A stretch of DNA of 64,000 nucleotides. Origin: a virus. Positions 59,733 through 62,691 of the stretch are shown piece by piece. Position 1 is the stretch's first letter, and each line of letters opens with the position of its first letter. The stretch lies in the IMG/VR virus record IMGVR_UViG_3300000103_000003, positions 11,643 to 75,642 of that record; one strand, given 5' to 3'. The position numbers and the translations under genes are program-made. The notes under the pieces are model-generated. The model was given only the letters and a program-made list of their open reading frames with translations, made no database searches and was not told the DNA's origin.

Positions 59733-60030
59733 ATTTACTGTTTAATTCGCTTTCGTATATACTTTCAAATTCACTTTCGTCATCTCTTTGTGATGTTCTT
59801 TTAGATGATTCTTCAAGTTCATTTGCGATTTCAGCCATCCAGTCATAAAACCCTAATGCTAATTTCCTCCAAGTGTTAGGAGGAGTATTTGAATTTTCTA
59901 ATTCTTTTCTGGAAAGAGCATGAAACACTTCCTGTGCTTTATTGATATTATCATCTTTAAAGACAATGTCTCGGATGGCTTCAAGAGTACTTTGGTCGTA
60001 ATATAGCTGTAAAACTGAATCTTTAGTCAT
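59722..60030 (-). CDS. Acidic hypothetical protein
   Basis: ORF track; downstream of a promoter. Confidence 0.75.
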   Translation of the reverse strand: MTKDSVLQLYYDQSTLEAIRDIVFKDDNINKAQEVFHALSRKELENSNTPPNTWRKLALGFYDWMAEIANELEESSKRTSQRDDESEFESIYESELNSKYEL

Positions 60031-60058
60031 AATTTTCTTTTTTAATTAATACTGGCTG

Positions 60059-60090
60059 CAAATATACAAAAAATATATGATATAGCCAAA
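60059..60090 (-). promoter_or_regulatory. Primary-sigma promoter
   Basis: TTTG-N20-TATATTTG. Confidence 0.8.
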
Positions 60091-60243
60091 TATAATTGAA
60101 GAAAAAATACAAAAAATAACCGCGCATCTCTCGACGGGCGGTTATCACATTATTAAACTTTTAAATTAAATTTTATAATAAAACAAAAAAACATCCCGTC
60201 TCACGACGATATTAAACAACCTTTTTTATGAAAAACTCTTTAG

Positions 60244-60315
60244 TTGCGAGCTGGGGAATCGAACCCCATACCATAAGATAATGAGCCTTACATGCAACCG
60301 GTACACCTGCTCGCG
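60244..60315 (-). tRNA. tRNA-Met (CAT), initiator-like C1:A72 mismatch, atypical anticodon arm
   Basis: CGCGAGC/GCTCGCA acceptor, TGGGG-TTCGATT-CCCCA T arm, TAAGG-CTCATTA-TCTTA anticodon arm; CCA not encoded. Confidence 0.88.
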
Positions 60316-60318
60316 ATA

Positions 60319-60519
60319 TTATTCTTTTATATACAATCGACAATGACAAACATCATTTTCACGATAATCTGAACATGGACAATTTTTATCTTTAGAGTTA
60401 TTATGACATGGACATTCACCTTTACATCGTGCAATACCTCTAAGGATGCCATTGACAACCTTATCATTAGGGTTCAACACCCAGCCGGGTTTACGATAAA
60501 TGTAGAACATATCTGTCAT
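60319..60519 (-). CDS. Ferredoxin-thioredoxin reductase catalytic-subunit-like protein
   Basis: LNPND..V..I...CPC...CPC...CHC..Y, complete motif set. Confidence 0.85.
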   Translation of the reverse strand: MTDMFYIYRKPGWVLNPNDKVVNGILRGIARCKGECPCHNNSKDKNCPCSDYRENDVCHCRLYIKE

Positions 60520-60650
60520 AATTTTATATTAGTTTCGATAAGCCCCCAGCAGTTTCTAATGTTACTTACTGGAGGCGAGGGTCACAGGCTCCACGCCTAT
60601 GAGGGGTTTCTTAACCTTAGACTTTGAATCAGGGAGAATAAGGTATTGGG

Positions 60651-60722
60651 TTGGTTTAGAGGGATTTGAACCCACAGCCTCCACCGTATCAGGGTGTTGC
60701 TCCACCGTTGAGCTATAAACCA
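60651..60722 (-). tRNA. tRNA-Ile (GAT)
   Basis: TGGTTTA/TAAACCA acceptor, GCTC/GAGC D stem, CTGATAC loop, GGTTCAAATCC T arm. Confidence 0.92.
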
Positions 60723-60793
60723 GTCGCAGAGCGCGAGTACATTCGCCGTGTGTCGCGTTCCGAACCCAGTTCTCTTTGGAGAATGGGAGATAT

Positions 60794-60836
60794 AAAAAAC
60801 CCAGTTATTTGAGCATTGTTAAGAGGCTTTCCGGGT
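60794..60836 (-). terminator. Terminator-like stem enclosing a boxA-like sequence
   Basis: ACCCGG-AAAGCCTCTTAACAATGCTCAAATAA-CTGGGT-TTTTT. Confidence 0.45.
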
Positions 60837-60842
60837 ATGTTG

Positions 60843-60910
60843 TGGGGAAGGAGATTACAACATCTCTCCCAGCGACTTAGGTATTCTAATCGTAATTAGA
60901 CCATTTCCCA
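60843..60910 (-). ncRNA. Cloverleaf-like non-tRNA element
   Basis: GGGAA/TTCCC closing stem with three hairpins (TCTAAT/ATTAGA, CCTA/TGGG, GAGAT/ATCTC); no canonical T or anticodon loop. Confidence 0.45.
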
Positions 60911-61005
60911 ATTTAAAATGACTAATACACAGTTCTTCGGGATGTATATTAGTTCTATACTCGAAGTTCCTTACTGGTGTGCTATTTGAGCGTTAAGGAA
61001 CATAT

Positions 61006-61079
61006 TGGGGAGGATAACGGATTCAAACCGCTATTTGTGCCGAAATCCAGCACCGTCCTATCAATTAGACGAATCCCCC
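61006..61079 (-). tRNA. tRNA-like gene with an aberrant anticodon loop (undetermined or pseudo)
   Basis: GGGGGAT/ATCCTCC acceptor, GTC-TAATTGATAG-GAC D arm, AGCGG-TTTGAAT-CCGTT T arm; anticodon loop GGATTTC lacks U33 and purine 37. Confidence 0.7.
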
Positions 61080-61082
61080 AAA

Positions 61083-61137
61083 TAGGGGCAGAACGCCCCC
61101 TAATCTCCGTCTCGGAGAAAAACCGATGACATCGGTT
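61083..61137 (-). ncRNA. Three adjacent short hairpins
   Basis: TAGGGG..CCCCTA, TCTCCG/CGGAGA and AACCGAT/ATCGGTT back to back. Confidence 0.5.
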
Positions 61138-61196
61138 ATGTAAGCTGGCACTGGAAAGGGATGTGACCCCACTATGCTCTTATGCTTTCATCGTAT

Positions 61197-61230
61197 CTAA
61201 GAATAGAGATATTTAATACTGAAAAGTTTA
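61197..61230 (-). promoter_or_regulatory. Putative phage late promoter for the RNA cluster
   Basis: TAAACTTT-N16-CTATTCTTAG. Confidence 0.65.
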
Positions 61231-61911
61231 AACTTGTTCTGGAATCGCAAACACTTTATTGTTTTCAAGAATACTCTGAATATTCTCATGTGTCACTAAT
61301 TTAGACAAAAATTCAGAGGCTTTTTGAAACTGGGTTTGTACATCCTGTAAGTTCTTATGTGCTGCTTCGGAATAATCTATCAAAGTGGCTTTACTATAAG
61401 CACTATGATGACTTAATTTCGCCCATCCAGAATAATTATCATACTTAATTCCGTATTGACCTCTTGGTACGTGTACGTCTTCGTTCCATTTTTCGGCATT
61501 ATAATGCGTTATGCGACCATCAATATTGATTTCAATAAGAACCTTAAACGAGAACCCAATCGCGTCAATATCGCCAGACATTCGGCTTAAATGAAGAGGG
61601 TTGTGTGTTCCCGTTAATAACGGATTCCATTCTCCATCTGGTAACTTGCAATATGCTCCGTTTGCCTTGAAGTCTATCCACAGTTTTATACAATGTGATG
61701 TTTTGGCATTTTTATAAGCTATGAAAGCATCCGTAACTACTTTTTCCAGTGCTGGAAGTGTAGTTGTTTCTAATGTTTTAGGGTCTACTCCCATTTTTTG
61801 AGCAATCGCAAAAGGCATAGAGCAAGTAAATACTCCTCCAGTAGAACACTTAAAGTCTATTGGATATTCCGTGCCTTCAAACTCATACTTAACTGTTTTT
61901 ATTTTTGCCAT
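61228..61911 (-). CDS. Hypothetical protein
   Basis: ORF track, 227 aa. Confidence 0.8.
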   Translation of the reverse strand: MAKIKTVKYEFEGTEYPIDFKCSTGGVFTCSMPFAIAQKMGVDPKTLETTTLPALEKVVTDAFIAYKNAKTSHCIKLWIDFKANGAYCKLPDGEWNPLLTGTHNPLHLSRMSGDIDAIGFSFKVLIEINIDGRITHYNAEKWNEDVHVPRGQYGIKYDNYSGWAKLSHHSAYSKATLIDYSEAAHKNLQDVQTQFQKASEFLSKLVTHENIQSILENNKVFAIPEQV

Positions 61912-62150
61912 ATTATTGTATCTAATTGTTTAACTACTTTTGTGCCATCTGGGTAATGGTAGTGATAATAATGTGTCTCTTTTGATGTATGTTTGTAAAG
62001 TTCTCTTTCTCTATGAATAGAAGTCACAAACATTGCAAATAACAGGCTTGCAAAACAAGCAAATATCATATACGCCATGAATTTACTTGTTTGCGAAGAG
62101 CCTATTTTGTGAGACATATAGTTATTAATTTTAGGACTTAATCCTTCCAT
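61899..62150 (-). CDS. Small membrane protein
   Basis: Start adjusted to the TAATG overlap at 62150; one TM segment. Confidence 0.65.
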   Translation of the reverse strand: MEGLSPKINNYMSHKIGSSQTSKFMAYMIFACFASLLFAMFVTSIHRERELYKHTSKETHYYHYHYPDGTKVVKQLDTIIWQK

Positions 62151-62629
62151 TACCAACTTTTTGTTGTTTGGCGAATCTCTTCTGCGATTGGTAATTGCAT
62201 AGATTGAACCGGAATAAACCATTCAGTTTCGCCTTGATAAGCACCACCGATAAGATTACACCATGCACCAACAACCCAGCCTTTGTCATTTTTAACTTCC
62301 GTATTTACATACGCCTGTCTGTTTATCAAATCATTTAATTTCAGGTCTGATAACTCATGGCTCGGCATGATTGTAATGGTTTTCTTTTCGTACTTGATTA
62401 CCGGGCGTTCTTTTGGTTTGCGAGGCTGGATGTAAAGTTTACAACCACACTTAGAAGTTTCACGATATACCTTACATGGACATCTGTGGTCTTCTGGAGA
62501 ACCGTCTTTTCTAATGTCCGATATTCGCGGACAAAAGCCGTAATTAGCCTTGATTTTAAATCTTAACTCTTCAACAAAGAATTTATCAGGGTTAAGAAAT
62601 GTTCCTTTTACTGGAATTGTCTGTGTCAT
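62150..62629 (-). CDS. Divergent FTR-catalytic-like domain fused to an SH3-like domain
   Basis: LNPD...CPR...CPC...CGC..Y, then LKLNDLINRQAYV...GETEWFIP. Confidence 0.7.
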   Translation of the reverse strand: MTQTIPVKGTFLNPDKFFVEELRFKIKANYGFCPRISDIRKDGSPEDHRCPCKVYRETSKCGCKLYIQPRKPKERPVIKYEKKTITIMPSHELSDLKLNDLINRQAYVNTEVKNDKGWVVGAWCNLIGGAYQGETEWFIPVQSMQLPIAEEIRQTTKSW

Positions 62630-62659
62630 AATAATGTTTTTTAATGTTTGAATAAAGTG

Positions 62660-62691
62660 CAAATATATACATAATATTTGACACCGCCAAA
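62660..62691 (-). promoter_or_regulatory. Primary-sigma promoter
   Basis: TTTG-N20-TATATTTG. Confidence 0.8.

What the first reader, a model, noticed from the sequence alone, without database searches (positions are those of the whole stretch)
60244..61230. Dense late-expressed RNA cassette: two tRNAs, tRNA look-alikes and orphan hairpin modules, bracketed by FTR-like genes and an RNA ligase
Seen: downstream of a late promoter, about 950 nt hold a hairpin triplet, an aberrant tRNA, a non-tRNA cloverleaf, a boxA-containing terminator, more hairpins (60723-60784), tRNA-Ile, a multi-hairpin leader (60541-60650), an FTR-like gene and tRNA-Met. Almost all noncoding bases can pair. Established: phage tRNA arrays offset tRNA-cleaving defences, and large structured RNAs (GOLLD, ROOL) occur beside phage tRNAs. 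Inference: a translation-protection system combining replacement tRNAs, decoys and repair, or a processed larger ncRNA. This is my best candidate for an undescribed system.
Basis: partly seen in the sequence, partly recalled or inferred. Interest (0 to 1): 0.8.

Follow-up and report, generated by a model that had tools for sequence, protein, structure and literature searches.

The report
Phage tRNA cassette with AbiF-antitoxin RNA
A gut-type bacteriophage carries, among its few tRNA genes, a lone copy of the small RNA that bacteria use to hold their AbiF suicide RNase in check, so the phage probably uses it as a decoy; the other hairpins in the stretch show no sign of being a new system.

Summary
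The stretch is a minus-strand RNA cassette in a 106.7-kb phage of Bacteroidales type. Two tRNAs are real: Ile-GAU (63.6 bits) and an odd CAU tRNA (36.5 bits). A tRNA-shaped element with a dead anticodon loop is also there.

This RNA is the antitoxin of the AbiF HEPN RNase. The 96%-complete phage has no AbiF gene.

In viral contigs the same 23-nt core is mostly orphan: 8 of 67 copies have an AbiF-like gene downstream, against 55 of 83 in bacteria, mostly Bacteroidales. It sits next to co-oriented tRNA genes far more often than chance.

Best reading: a phage-borne antitoxin mimic against AbiF abortive infection, made with the tRNAs. This is inferred, not shown.

The remaining hairpins have no homologues anywhere, and only some fold better than shuffled sequence. 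No GOLLD or ROOL match and no end-healing kinase was found.

This scan had already found orphan abiF RNAs in phages, including in tRNA clusters, on other DNA (e1-954510, e1-2903486, e1-371681). This is therefore another instance of a recurring, apparently unpublished pattern.

The parts
61121..61137 (-). Hairpin 1 of the 'triplet': 7-8-bp stem (AACCGAUG/CAUCGGUU) followed by UUUUC. Terminator-like, about 90 nt after the stop of the 227-aa gene.
   Evidence: Fold. Segment 61227-61080 has z = -2.0 (5 of 200 shuffles fold as well). No homologue found.
61084..61118 (-). Hairpins 2 and 3 of the 'triplet' (CUCCGAGACGGAG; GGGGGCGUUCUGCCCCU), abutting the tRNA-like element. Role unknown.
   Evidence: No recurrence in other loci.
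61007..61079 (-). tRNA-shaped element. All four stems are intact (with G-U pairs), but it has G33 and U37 in the loop GGAUUUC, no G18 G19, and U56. It is unlikely to decode. It may be a processing (RNase P/Z) signal, a mimic or a pseudogene.
   Evidence: ARAGORN calls it only at -ps95, as 'Asn(att)'. Relaxed ARAGORN makes only one other extra call in the whole 106.7-kb genome. The minimum-energy fold is a cloverleaf, z = -2.8. No Rfam tRNA hit at E<=10.
60857..61006 (-). An 8-bp hairpin at 61001-60966 and a long AU-rich hairpin. Not more structured than chance.
   Evidence: z = -0.43, with 68 of 200 shuffles folding as well. No homologues. The second GCTCAAAT word here is not significant: there are 13 copies in the genome.
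60792..60841 (-). Orphan abiF-motif RNA (AbiF antitoxin type). The motif is at 60835-60799, with a 6-bp P1 stem (ACCCGG/CUGGGU), the invariant core AAGCCUCUUAACAAUGCUCAAAU and a U-tract (UUUUUUAU).
   Evidence: RF03085 at 39.8 bits (cut-off 37), model positions 1-37 of 37. The core is identical to 209 other instances. P1 covaries across the family. U-tract as in 118 of 123 bacterial copies. No Abi_2 or AbiF-like gene in the genome.
60727..60787 (-). Two hairpins between the abiF RNA and tRNA-Ile. Modest structure, role unknown (possibly a 5' leader of the tRNA precursor).
   Evidence: z = -1.9 (7 of 200 shuffles fold as well).
60649..60722 (-). tRNA-Ile(GAU), canonical.
   Evidence: ARAGORN. 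Rfam 63.6 bits, E 4e-13.
60520..60648 (-). 129-nt leader with three hairpins in front of the FTR-like gene.
   Evidence: z = -2.77, 1 of 200 shuffles. The equivalent leader in Kehishuvirus is neither similar nor structured (z = -0.53).
60319..60519 (-). 66-aa gene like the ferredoxin-thioredoxin-reductase catalytic chain. It is the same small gene that sits inside the tRNA arrays of crAss001-type phages.
   Evidence: PF02943 at E 3.1e-6, 27.6 bits (cut-off 22). phrog_38239. 68-75% DNA identity to Kehishuvirus and crAss001 gp5, which lie within tRNA arrays.
60244..60315 (-). tRNA(CAU) with a C1xA72 mismatch, a weak D stem and U37 (loop CUCAUUA).
   Evidence: Rfam 36.5 bits (cut-off 29). ARAGORN finds it only at -ps95. 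The same loop CUCAUUA and a 1:72 mismatch occur in the tRNA-Met of relative L287, but in none of 30 other phage tRNA(CAU).
60105..60209 (-). Two intrinsic terminator hairpins that close the transcription unit (60209-60196, and 60146-60115 plus a U-run).
   Evidence: A weak BTnc231/FopS-like match below the cut-off reflects only the terminator shape.

Best explanation
The stretch is the small tRNA cassette of a virulent-type Bacteroidales phage. It holds tRNA-Ile(GAU), an unusual tRNA(CAU), a tRNA-shaped non-decoding element and the small FTR-like gene typical of Bacteroides-phage tRNA arrays.

One passenger has a recognisable identity: an orphan copy of the abiF-motif RNA (AbiFr). In bacteria this RNA binds the AbiF HEPN RNase and blocks its active site, as the antitoxin of a type III toxin-antitoxin abortive-infection system.

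Proposed mechanism:
- The phage transcribes the cassette.
- The 3' end of the abiF hairpin is set by its own P1 stem plus U-tract, as in the bacterial RNA.
- Its 5' end is set by processing. In many other phages flanking tRNAs would give RNase P/Z cuts, and AbiF itself processes its cognate RNA.
- The resulting RNA of about 45-50 nt keeps host AbiF dimers inhibited when the host's own short-lived antitoxin is no longer replenished. Abortive infection is therefore not triggered.

Shown: the motif, its orphan state, the family-wide orphan bias in viruses, and the tRNA association. Inferred: expression, processing, binding to AbiF and protection. The remaining hairpins are best read as terminator, leader and processing structures or decayed tRNA material, with no evidence of a further system.
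For: - Motif: RF03085 at 39.8 bits (cut-off 37), full length, E 3.6e-7 per genome. The 23-nt core is identical to 86 viral and 123 bacterial instances. P1 is supported by covariation: 74 distinct flank pairs, mean helix 5.3 bp against 2.6 with shuffled partners (maximum 3.2).
- Orphan state: no Abi_2 hit in six frames of the 96%-complete genome. An HMM built here from Bacteroidales AbiF-like ORFs gives only noise (best E 0.27). The adjacent 227-aa protein is beta-rich and not HEPN-like.
- Family pattern: only 7 of 79 viral records with the core hold Abi_2, 4 of them proviruses. An AbiF-like ORF lies directly downstream in 8 of 67 viral copies against 55 of 83 bacterial copies.
- Bacterial holders are mostly Bacteroidales (Prevotella, Segatella, Bacteroidaceae, Alistipes). 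This is the likely host group: TerL is 48% identical to Bacteroides phage BS-TP1, and the FTR gene is 75% identical in DNA to a Bacteroides crAss-like phage.
- tRNA link: in 65 de-replicated viral clusters a tRNA lies within 100 nt of the motif in 13, against a random-in-locus mean of 3.6 (maximum 11 in 2000 trials). All 64 tRNAs within 1 kb are co-oriented with the motif.
- Function of the RNA: abiF-motif RNA neutralises AbiF by direct binding, in cis and in trans (PMC12373285; PbAbiF-AbiFr structure as summarised in PMC12737573).
- Precedent: a phage sk1 hairpin protects against AbiF, reported as confirmed experimentally (PMC12184496, PMC13064643).
Against: - No expression data: no sequencing run was listed for this DNA.
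- No promoter was found just upstream of the motif, unlike bacterial loci, which have a TAnnTTTG box there.
- The host is unknown, so it is not shown to carry AbiF.
- The phage has no close relatives. The one distant relative with a tRNA cassette (L287) lacks the motif. Conservation within the lineage therefore cannot be shown.
- The hairpin alone is thermodynamically unremarkable (z = -0.19).
- The viral and bacterial counts rest on an exact 23-nt pattern, not on a full covariance-model census, and on fragmentary contigs.
Confidence: 0.6

Rival explanations
1. The abiF hairpin is used by the phage only as a transcription terminator or 3'-end stabiliser, or it is a neutral leftover of a captured AbiF locus. 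It has no interaction with host AbiF.
For: It carries a U-tract and sits where a terminator could separate the upstream RNA from tRNA-Ile. In Roseobacter phage CRP-143 it lies between the scaffold and capsid genes, a classic terminator or processing position. The relative L287 lacks it.
Against: A plain terminator does not need 23 invariant loop and bulge nucleotides kept identical across unrelated phage families (T4-like, T7-like, Bacteroidales phages, a cyanophage) while only the stem covaries. 56 of 86 viral copies have no U-tract at all. Orphan copies predominate in near-complete viral genomes.
Confidence: 0.17
2. One reading: replacement tRNAs, tRNA-shaped decoys for anticodon nucleases, orphan hairpin modules and RNA-ligase repair act together as one translation-protection island.
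For: An Rnl2-type RNA ligase lies 1.9 kb upstream. The tRNA-like element keeps all stems while losing its decoding features. The tRNA(CAU) has a rare U37 that is conserved in a distant relative. An antitoxin-type RNA is in the same cassette.
Against: No end-healing kinase or phosphatase domain (AAA_33, PNK3P) was found in the genome. RNA-ligase relatives in 33 other phages are not syntenic with tRNAs or abiF. None of the hairpin modules recurs anywhere. AbiF is described as a non-specific ssRNA nuclease, not an anticodon nuclease (PMC12737573).
Confidence: 0.1
3. The phage runs its own toxin-antitoxin pair. The abiF RNA neutralises a phage-encoded, highly divergent HEPN toxin that Pfam does not recognise, for example for superinfection exclusion.
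For: Seven viral records, mostly proviruses, do carry complete AbiF systems. 4% of the genome may be missing.
Against: There is no Abi_2 or AbiF-like signal in six frames. PADLOC has no hit for neighbouring ORFs. The adjacent 227-aa protein is a beta-rich fold without conserved catalytic residues. Downstream of the RNA lie a tRNA and a 66-aa FTR-like gene.
Confidence: 0.06
4. The roughly 500-nt spacer is one large structured ncRNA, processed or not, of the kind found beside phage tRNAs (GOLLD or ROOL-like).
For: The overall fold has z = -2.4, and the spacer lies next to tRNAs.
Against: No Rfam hit to GOLLD, ROOL or any large RNA, even at E<=10. The central 150 nt fold no better than shuffles. 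No homologous sequence was found in viral, metagenome or phage collections.
Confidence: 0.03

Closest known systems
abiF RNA motif (Rfam RF03085), also called AbiFr or RCd22: the RNA antitoxin of the AbiF/Abi_2 HEPN RNase (type III toxin-antitoxin system; PMC12373285; PbAbiF-AbiFr, PDB 8VZ6, as summarised in PMC12737573)
   Same: Full-length match above the curated cut-off. Identical invariant loop and bulge core, a P1 stem, and a terminal U-tract as in 96% of bacterial copies.
   Different: There is no abiF gene downstream or anywhere in the phage, and no promoter box directly upstream. It lies in a phage tRNA cassette. It is a single motif, not the tandem pair of RCd22.
Pseudo-ToxI of Pectobacterium phage PhiTE: phage-encoded mimic of the ToxI RNA antitoxin that defeats ToxIN abortive infection (Blower et al. 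2012, from my own knowledge; ToxIN is described in PMC13064643)
   Same: A phage-borne copy of the host's RNA antitoxin without the toxin. The predicted effect is to keep the toxin inhibited during infection.
   Different: A different toxin family (HEPN AbiF, not ToxN) and a different RNA. It is a natural full motif rather than an expanded partial repeat. It is untested.
Hairpin in the cos region of lactococcal phage sk1 that protects against AbiF (Rince et al. 2000; reported as confirmed in 2025 in PMC12184496 and PMC13064643)
   Same: A phage-encoded RNA hairpin that counteracts AbiF.
   Different: The sk1 hairpin is said not to resemble the AbiF ncRNA (PMC13064643). The element here is a bona fide abiF motif.
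abiF sRNA annotated in cyanophage S-CREM1 (PMC9964418); copies in Acinetobacter phage Acj61 and Roseobacter phage CRP-143
   Same: The same motif in virulent phages without an abiF gene nearby.
   Different: Those records only list or contain the motif. No antitoxin-mimic reading or test is given in the papers I could read.
tRNA arrays of crAss001 and Kehishuvirus with embedded gp5 'putative ferredoxin-thioredoxin reductase'
   Same: The same small FTR-like gene (68-75% DNA identity) lies between co-oriented tRNA genes.
   Different: Those arrays hold 18-25 tRNAs and have no match to the abiF core. This cassette has two tRNAs plus a tRNA-like element.

Membership tests
abiF RNA motif (RF03085) | Covariance-model score at or above Rfam's gathering cut-off over the full model | tested here: met
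   39.8 bits against 37, model positions 1-37 of 37, E 3.6e-7 per genome.
abiF RNA motif (RF03085) | Invariant loop and bulge sequence enclosed by a variable, covarying outer stem | tested here: met
   The core AAGCCUCUUAACAAUGCUCAAAU is identical to 209 other instances. The window has a 6-bp P1. Family helix mean 5.3 bp against 2.6 for shuffled partners.
abiF RNA motif (RF03085) | Location just upstream of an abiF (Abi_2) gene | tested here: not met
   tRNA-Ile and a 66-aa FTR-like gene lie downstream. There is no Abi_2 anywhere in the genome. This is an association, not part of the RNA model: about a third of the bacterial copies tested and 88% of the viral copies tested also lack an AbiF-like gene directly downstream.
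AbiF-AbiFr type III toxin-antitoxin system | HEPN (Abi_2) toxin gene paired with the RNA | tested here: not met
   So this is not a complete system, only its RNA half.
AbiF-AbiFr type III toxin-antitoxin system | The RNA binds AbiF and blocks its RNase site | not testable with these tools
   Needs co-expression, EMSA or a structure. Known for RCd22 and PbAbiFr (PMC12373285, PMC12737573).
Phage antitoxin mimic (pseudo-ToxI type) | The phage carries an RNA matching a host antitoxin and lacks the toxin | tested here: met
Phage antitoxin mimic (pseudo-ToxI type) | The host of this phage carries the cognate toxin, and the RNA protects the phage | not testable with these tools
   The host is unknown. 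Bacteroidales often carry AbiF with the identical core. No cultured phage or host is available.
tRNA (RF00005) | Passes tRNA models with a canonical anticodon loop | tested here: met
   Ile-GAU at 63.6 bits and by ARAGORN. CAU at 36.5 bits (cut-off 29) but with U37 and a weak D stem, and missed by ARAGORN at default settings.
tRNA (RF00005), for the element at 61079-61007 | Passes tRNA models with a canonical anticodon loop | tested here: not met
   No Rfam hit at E<=10. ARAGORN finds it only at -ps95. It has G33, U37, no G18 G19, and U56. It is tRNA-shaped, not a tRNA.
GOLLD / ROOL large RNAs | Match to the Rfam covariance models | tested here: not met
   No hit at the gathering cut-off over the 64-kb window, and none at E<=10 in 59900-61400.
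T4-type tRNA repair (polynucleotide kinase/phosphatase plus RNA ligase) | Both an end-healing enzyme and an RNA ligase are present | tested here: not met
   An RNA ligase of PF09414 (Rnl2) type is present. There is no AAA_33 or PNK3P domain in the genome. Other healing enzymes were not excluded.
Ferredoxin-thioredoxin reductase catalytic chain-like (PF02943) | Pfam score above the cut-off | tested here: met
   The 66-aa protein scores 27.6 bits against 22. The 170-aa paralogue scores only 19 bits, below the cut-off.

The most novel reading that the evidence does not exclude
Phage tRNA arrays double as anti-RNase islands. In this reading the AbiF-antitoxin mimic, a lineage-conserved initiator-like tRNA(CAU) with U37 that resists anticodon-loop cleavage, a tRNA-shaped non-decoding decoy or processing handle, and the nearby RNA ligase are co-selected to keep translation running when HEPN-type abortive-infection nucleases fire. 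AbiF would then have tRNAs, perhaps initiator tRNA, among its relevant targets.
Probability: 0.1. Interest if true: 0.8.

Novelty: new variant of a known kind. Interest (0 to 1): 0.5.

Why it matters
AbiF was recently shown to be an RNA-neutralised toxin and the ancestor of Cas13. If phages of many families carry lone copies of its antitoxin RNA, often inside tRNA arrays, that would be a widespread RNA-based counter-defence. It would parallel pseudo-ToxI and can be tested directly with cultured phages (Acj61, CRP-143, S-CREM1). It would also give a second reason, besides codon supply and replacement of cleaved tRNAs, why phages keep tRNA clusters: as expression and processing platforms for small anti-defence RNAs. 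For this window, the practical point is that the "undescribed system" reduces to one identifiable RNA plus ordinary tRNA-cassette material.

Tried and rejected
- Close relatives for comparative analysis of the whole cassette: none. Megablast and blastn against 50,697 phage records hit only the FTR gene. The TerL and 227-aa patterns found nothing in IMG/VR. The word-based protein search returned only the protein itself.
- RNA-ligase relatives (40-57% identity, 33 loci) are not syntenic with the cassette.
- An exact 18-mer from the anticodon arm of the tRNA-like element hit only an unrelated coding sequence. That scan was wasted.
- Homologues of the 227-aa gene (127 representatives) are followed directly by other genes, with no cassette.
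- I tested whether that protein is a HEPN toxin or a 2H phosphoesterase. It has no conserved His or catalytic residues and a beta-rich fold (pLDDT 91) with no named structural match. Rejected.
- A second GCUCAAAU word in hairpin 61001-60966 suggested a second, degenerate abiF motif. There is no Rfam hit at E<=10, and the word occurs 13 times in the genome. Rejected.
- No sequencing runs were listed for expression evidence.
- No repeated promoter-like motif links the cassette to other intergenic regions.
- The weak BTnc231, FopS and PrrF matches at 60100-60240 are far below their cut-offs and reflect only terminator shape.
Full report
WHAT IS THERE

The window is part of a 106,694-bp IMG/VR virus record estimated 96% complete. 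All genes between 57 and 64 kb run on the minus strand.

In the direction of transcription the order is:
- RNA ligase (PF09414, phrog_548), at 63623-62712.
- A weak FTR-like 170-aa ORF.
- A 107-aa ORF.
- A 227-aa ORF, at 61911-61228.
- About 505 nt of non-coding sequence.
- tRNA-Ile(GAU), at 60722-60649.
- A 129-nt leader.
- A 66-aa FeThRed_B-like gene, at 60519-60319.
- tRNA(CAU), at 60315-60244.
- Two terminators.
- Small ORFs, then the large terminase.

The phage is of Bacteroidales type. TerL is 48% identical to that of Bacteroides phage BS-TP1, and the FTR-like gene is 68-75% identical in DNA to crAss001 and Kehishuvirus.

CHECK OF THE OBSERVATION

The two tRNAs, the tRNA-shaped element at 61079-61007, the three hairpins before it, the FTR-like genes and the RNA ligase are all real.

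Relaxed ARAGORN makes only one further call in the whole genome. The cloverleaf beside real tRNAs is therefore unlikely to be chance.

The claim that nearly everything pairs is overstated:
- The whole 518-nt spacer folds with z = -2.4.
- The triplet segment has z = -2.0.
- The pre-tRNA-Ile segment has z = -1.9.
- The leader has z = -2.8.
- The "non-tRNA cloverleaf" part has z = -0.43.

No host-type promoter box lies on the minus strand between 62667 and 60094, so the "late promoter" is unverified.

THE KEY IDENTIFICATION

The "boxA-containing terminator" is a full-length match to the abiF RNA motif, RF03085, at 60835-60799 (39.8 bits, cut-off 37). The boxA look is the invariant loop CUCUUAACAA. 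The resemblance to the E. coli boxA consensus is recalled from memory and is not a functional claim.

abiF-motif RNA is the antitoxin of the AbiF (Abi_2, HEPN) RNase. It binds the toxin directly and neutralises it, in cis and in trans (PMC12373285). The PbAbiF-AbiFr structure shows the RNA blocking the active site (summarised in PMC12737573).

The phage has no AbiF:
- No Abi_2 hit in six frames.
- Only noise with an HMM I built from 75 AbiF-like ORFs found next to the motif.
- No PADLOC hits for neighbouring ORFs.

THE FAMILY PICTURE

An exact scan for the 23-nt core found 86 viral stretches and at least 120 bacterial ones, mostly Bacteroidales.

- Covariation. The outer stem varies freely but stays complementary. 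There are 47 distinct 5' strands, and the mean helix is 5.3 bp against 2.6 for shuffled partners.
- Orphan bias. Only 7 of 79 viral records hold an Abi_2 gene, and 4 of those are proviruses. Among copies with enough downstream sequence, an AbiF-like ORF follows in 55 of 83 bacterial copies but only 8 of 67 viral ones.
- 3' ends. Bacterial copies nearly always end in a U-tract (118 of 123). Only 30 of 86 viral copies do, and the window copy does.
- tRNA association. In 65 de-replicated viral clusters a tRNA boundary lies within 100 nt of the motif in 13 and within 300 nt in 19. Placing the motif at random within the same loci gives means of 3.6 and 6.3 (maxima 11 and 13 in 2000 trials). All 64 tRNAs within 1 kb are co-oriented with the motif. 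In several arrays a tRNA ends 9-17 nt before the core, or begins 36-82 nt after it.
- Cultured carriers. These include Acinetobacter phage Acj61, Roseobacter phage CRP-143 and cyanophage S-CREM1, where the motif was listed without interpretation (PMC9964418).

MECHANISM

I read the element as a phage-borne antitoxin mimic. It would be transcribed with the tRNAs. Its 3' end would be set by its own stem and U-tract, and its 5' end by processing. It would hold host AbiF in the inhibited state during infection.

Precedents are pseudo-ToxI (own knowledge) and the sk1 hairpin that protects against AbiF (PMC12184496, PMC13064643).

Expression, processing, binding and protection are all inferred. No sequencing run was listed for this DNA.

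THE REST OF THE CASSETTE

Nothing other than the abiF core recurs in about 1.5 Mb of fetched phage loci.

The tRNA-like element keeps all four stems but lacks U33, a purine at position 37, G18 G19 and C56. That fits a shape kept for processing or mimicry better than simple decay, but one sequence without relatives cannot settle it.

One distant relative (L287, TerL 46%) has tRNA-Met, tRNA-Ile and tRNA-Lys at the equivalent place upstream of its terminase gene, plus a 97-nt aberrant tRNA-like element. It has no abiF motif. The tRNA cassette is therefore a lineage feature, and the abiF RNA is an add-on.

The repair idea lacks an end-healing enzyme. There is no GOLLD or ROOL match.

The 227-aa upstream gene belongs to an uncharacterised phage family. 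It gives a confident model with no named fold match and has no conserved catalytic residues.

NOVELTY

The RNA family and its function are known. RNA-antitoxin mimicry by phages is known for ToxIN, and a non-homologous hairpin is known to counter AbiF.

In the papers I could read, I did not find genuine abiF motifs in phages interpreted as decoys, nor their link to tRNA arrays. The 2025 Cell paper is not held, so I could not check it.

Within this scan the same pattern was already reported on other DNA (e1-954510, e1-2903486, e1-371681, e1-2001660). I reached the reading before seeing those notes and re-tested it here. This window is a further instance, not a first sighting.

Noticed in passing
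window 60244-60315 (-); L287:3691-3763: The tRNA(CAU) has the anticodon loop CUCAUUA (U37) and a 1:72 mismatch (C1xA72). The tRNA-Met of the only distant relative (TerL 46%) has the same loop, a C1xC72 mismatch and compensatory changes in the anticodon stem. None of 30 other distinct phage tRNA(CAU) in my loci has U37, and only 2 of 221 distinct tRNAs have T at position 37. This is a lineage-conserved, initiator-like tRNA with an unusual position 37.
   Followed up: partly
window 60319-60519 (-); L158, L159, L284: The small FTR-like gene is embedded in the 18-25-gene tRNA arrays of crAss001 and Kehishuvirus (gp5). It shares 68-75% DNA identity with the window copy although the phages are otherwise unrelated. 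Lak megaphages have a 73% identical copy with no tRNA within 2.5 kb. This suggests a mobile gene functionally tied to phage tRNA cassettes.
   Followed up: partly
L287:4003-4099: A 97-nt tRNA-like element lies between tRNA-Ile and tRNA-Lys in the relative. It has good acceptor, D and T arms. ARAGORN calls it only as Arg(ccg) with a 23-nt 'intron', or at a relaxed threshold as Phe with a long extra arm. Rfam misses it. It is a second aberrant tRNA-shaped RNA in this phage lineage, not homologous to the window's.
   Followed up: partly
abiF core positions 9 and 13 (window 60821 and 60817, minus strand): Two 'loop' positions of the motif covary almost perfectly across 209 instances: U..A in 101, C..G in 104, A..U in 1 and C..A in 3. 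This implies a base pair closing an AAC triloop, which the Rfam consensus structure shows as unpaired.
   Followed up: partly
L005-L090 against L161-L280: Bacterial abiF RNAs almost always end in a U-tract (118 of 123), but most viral copies do not (30 of 86). Many tRNA-abutting viral copies also have shortened P1 stems. This suggests that viral copies are released by processing rather than by termination.
   Followed up: partly
window 61228-61911 (-): The 227-aa protein belongs to a family of about 127 representatives at 50% clustering, each about 220 aa. AlphaFold gives pLDDT 91 with an 83-sequence alignment. It has a beta-rich core with a long C-terminal helix. There is no PDB match and only unnamed AFDB clusters. 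It is an uncharacterised, mobile phage gene with changing neighbours.
   Followed up: partly
genome C1:102251-102339 (+), outside the window: Relaxed ARAGORN (-ps95) calls a sub-threshold 'tRNA-Leu(taa)' far from the cassette.
   Followed up: no
window 62150-62662 (-): The ORF list gives the 170-aa FTR-like paralogue a TTG start that falls within a TATATTTG box (62660-62667). That box is the only host-type promoter box upstream of the cassette on this strand. The true start is probably further downstream, and this may be the promoter of the whole unit.
   Followed up: no
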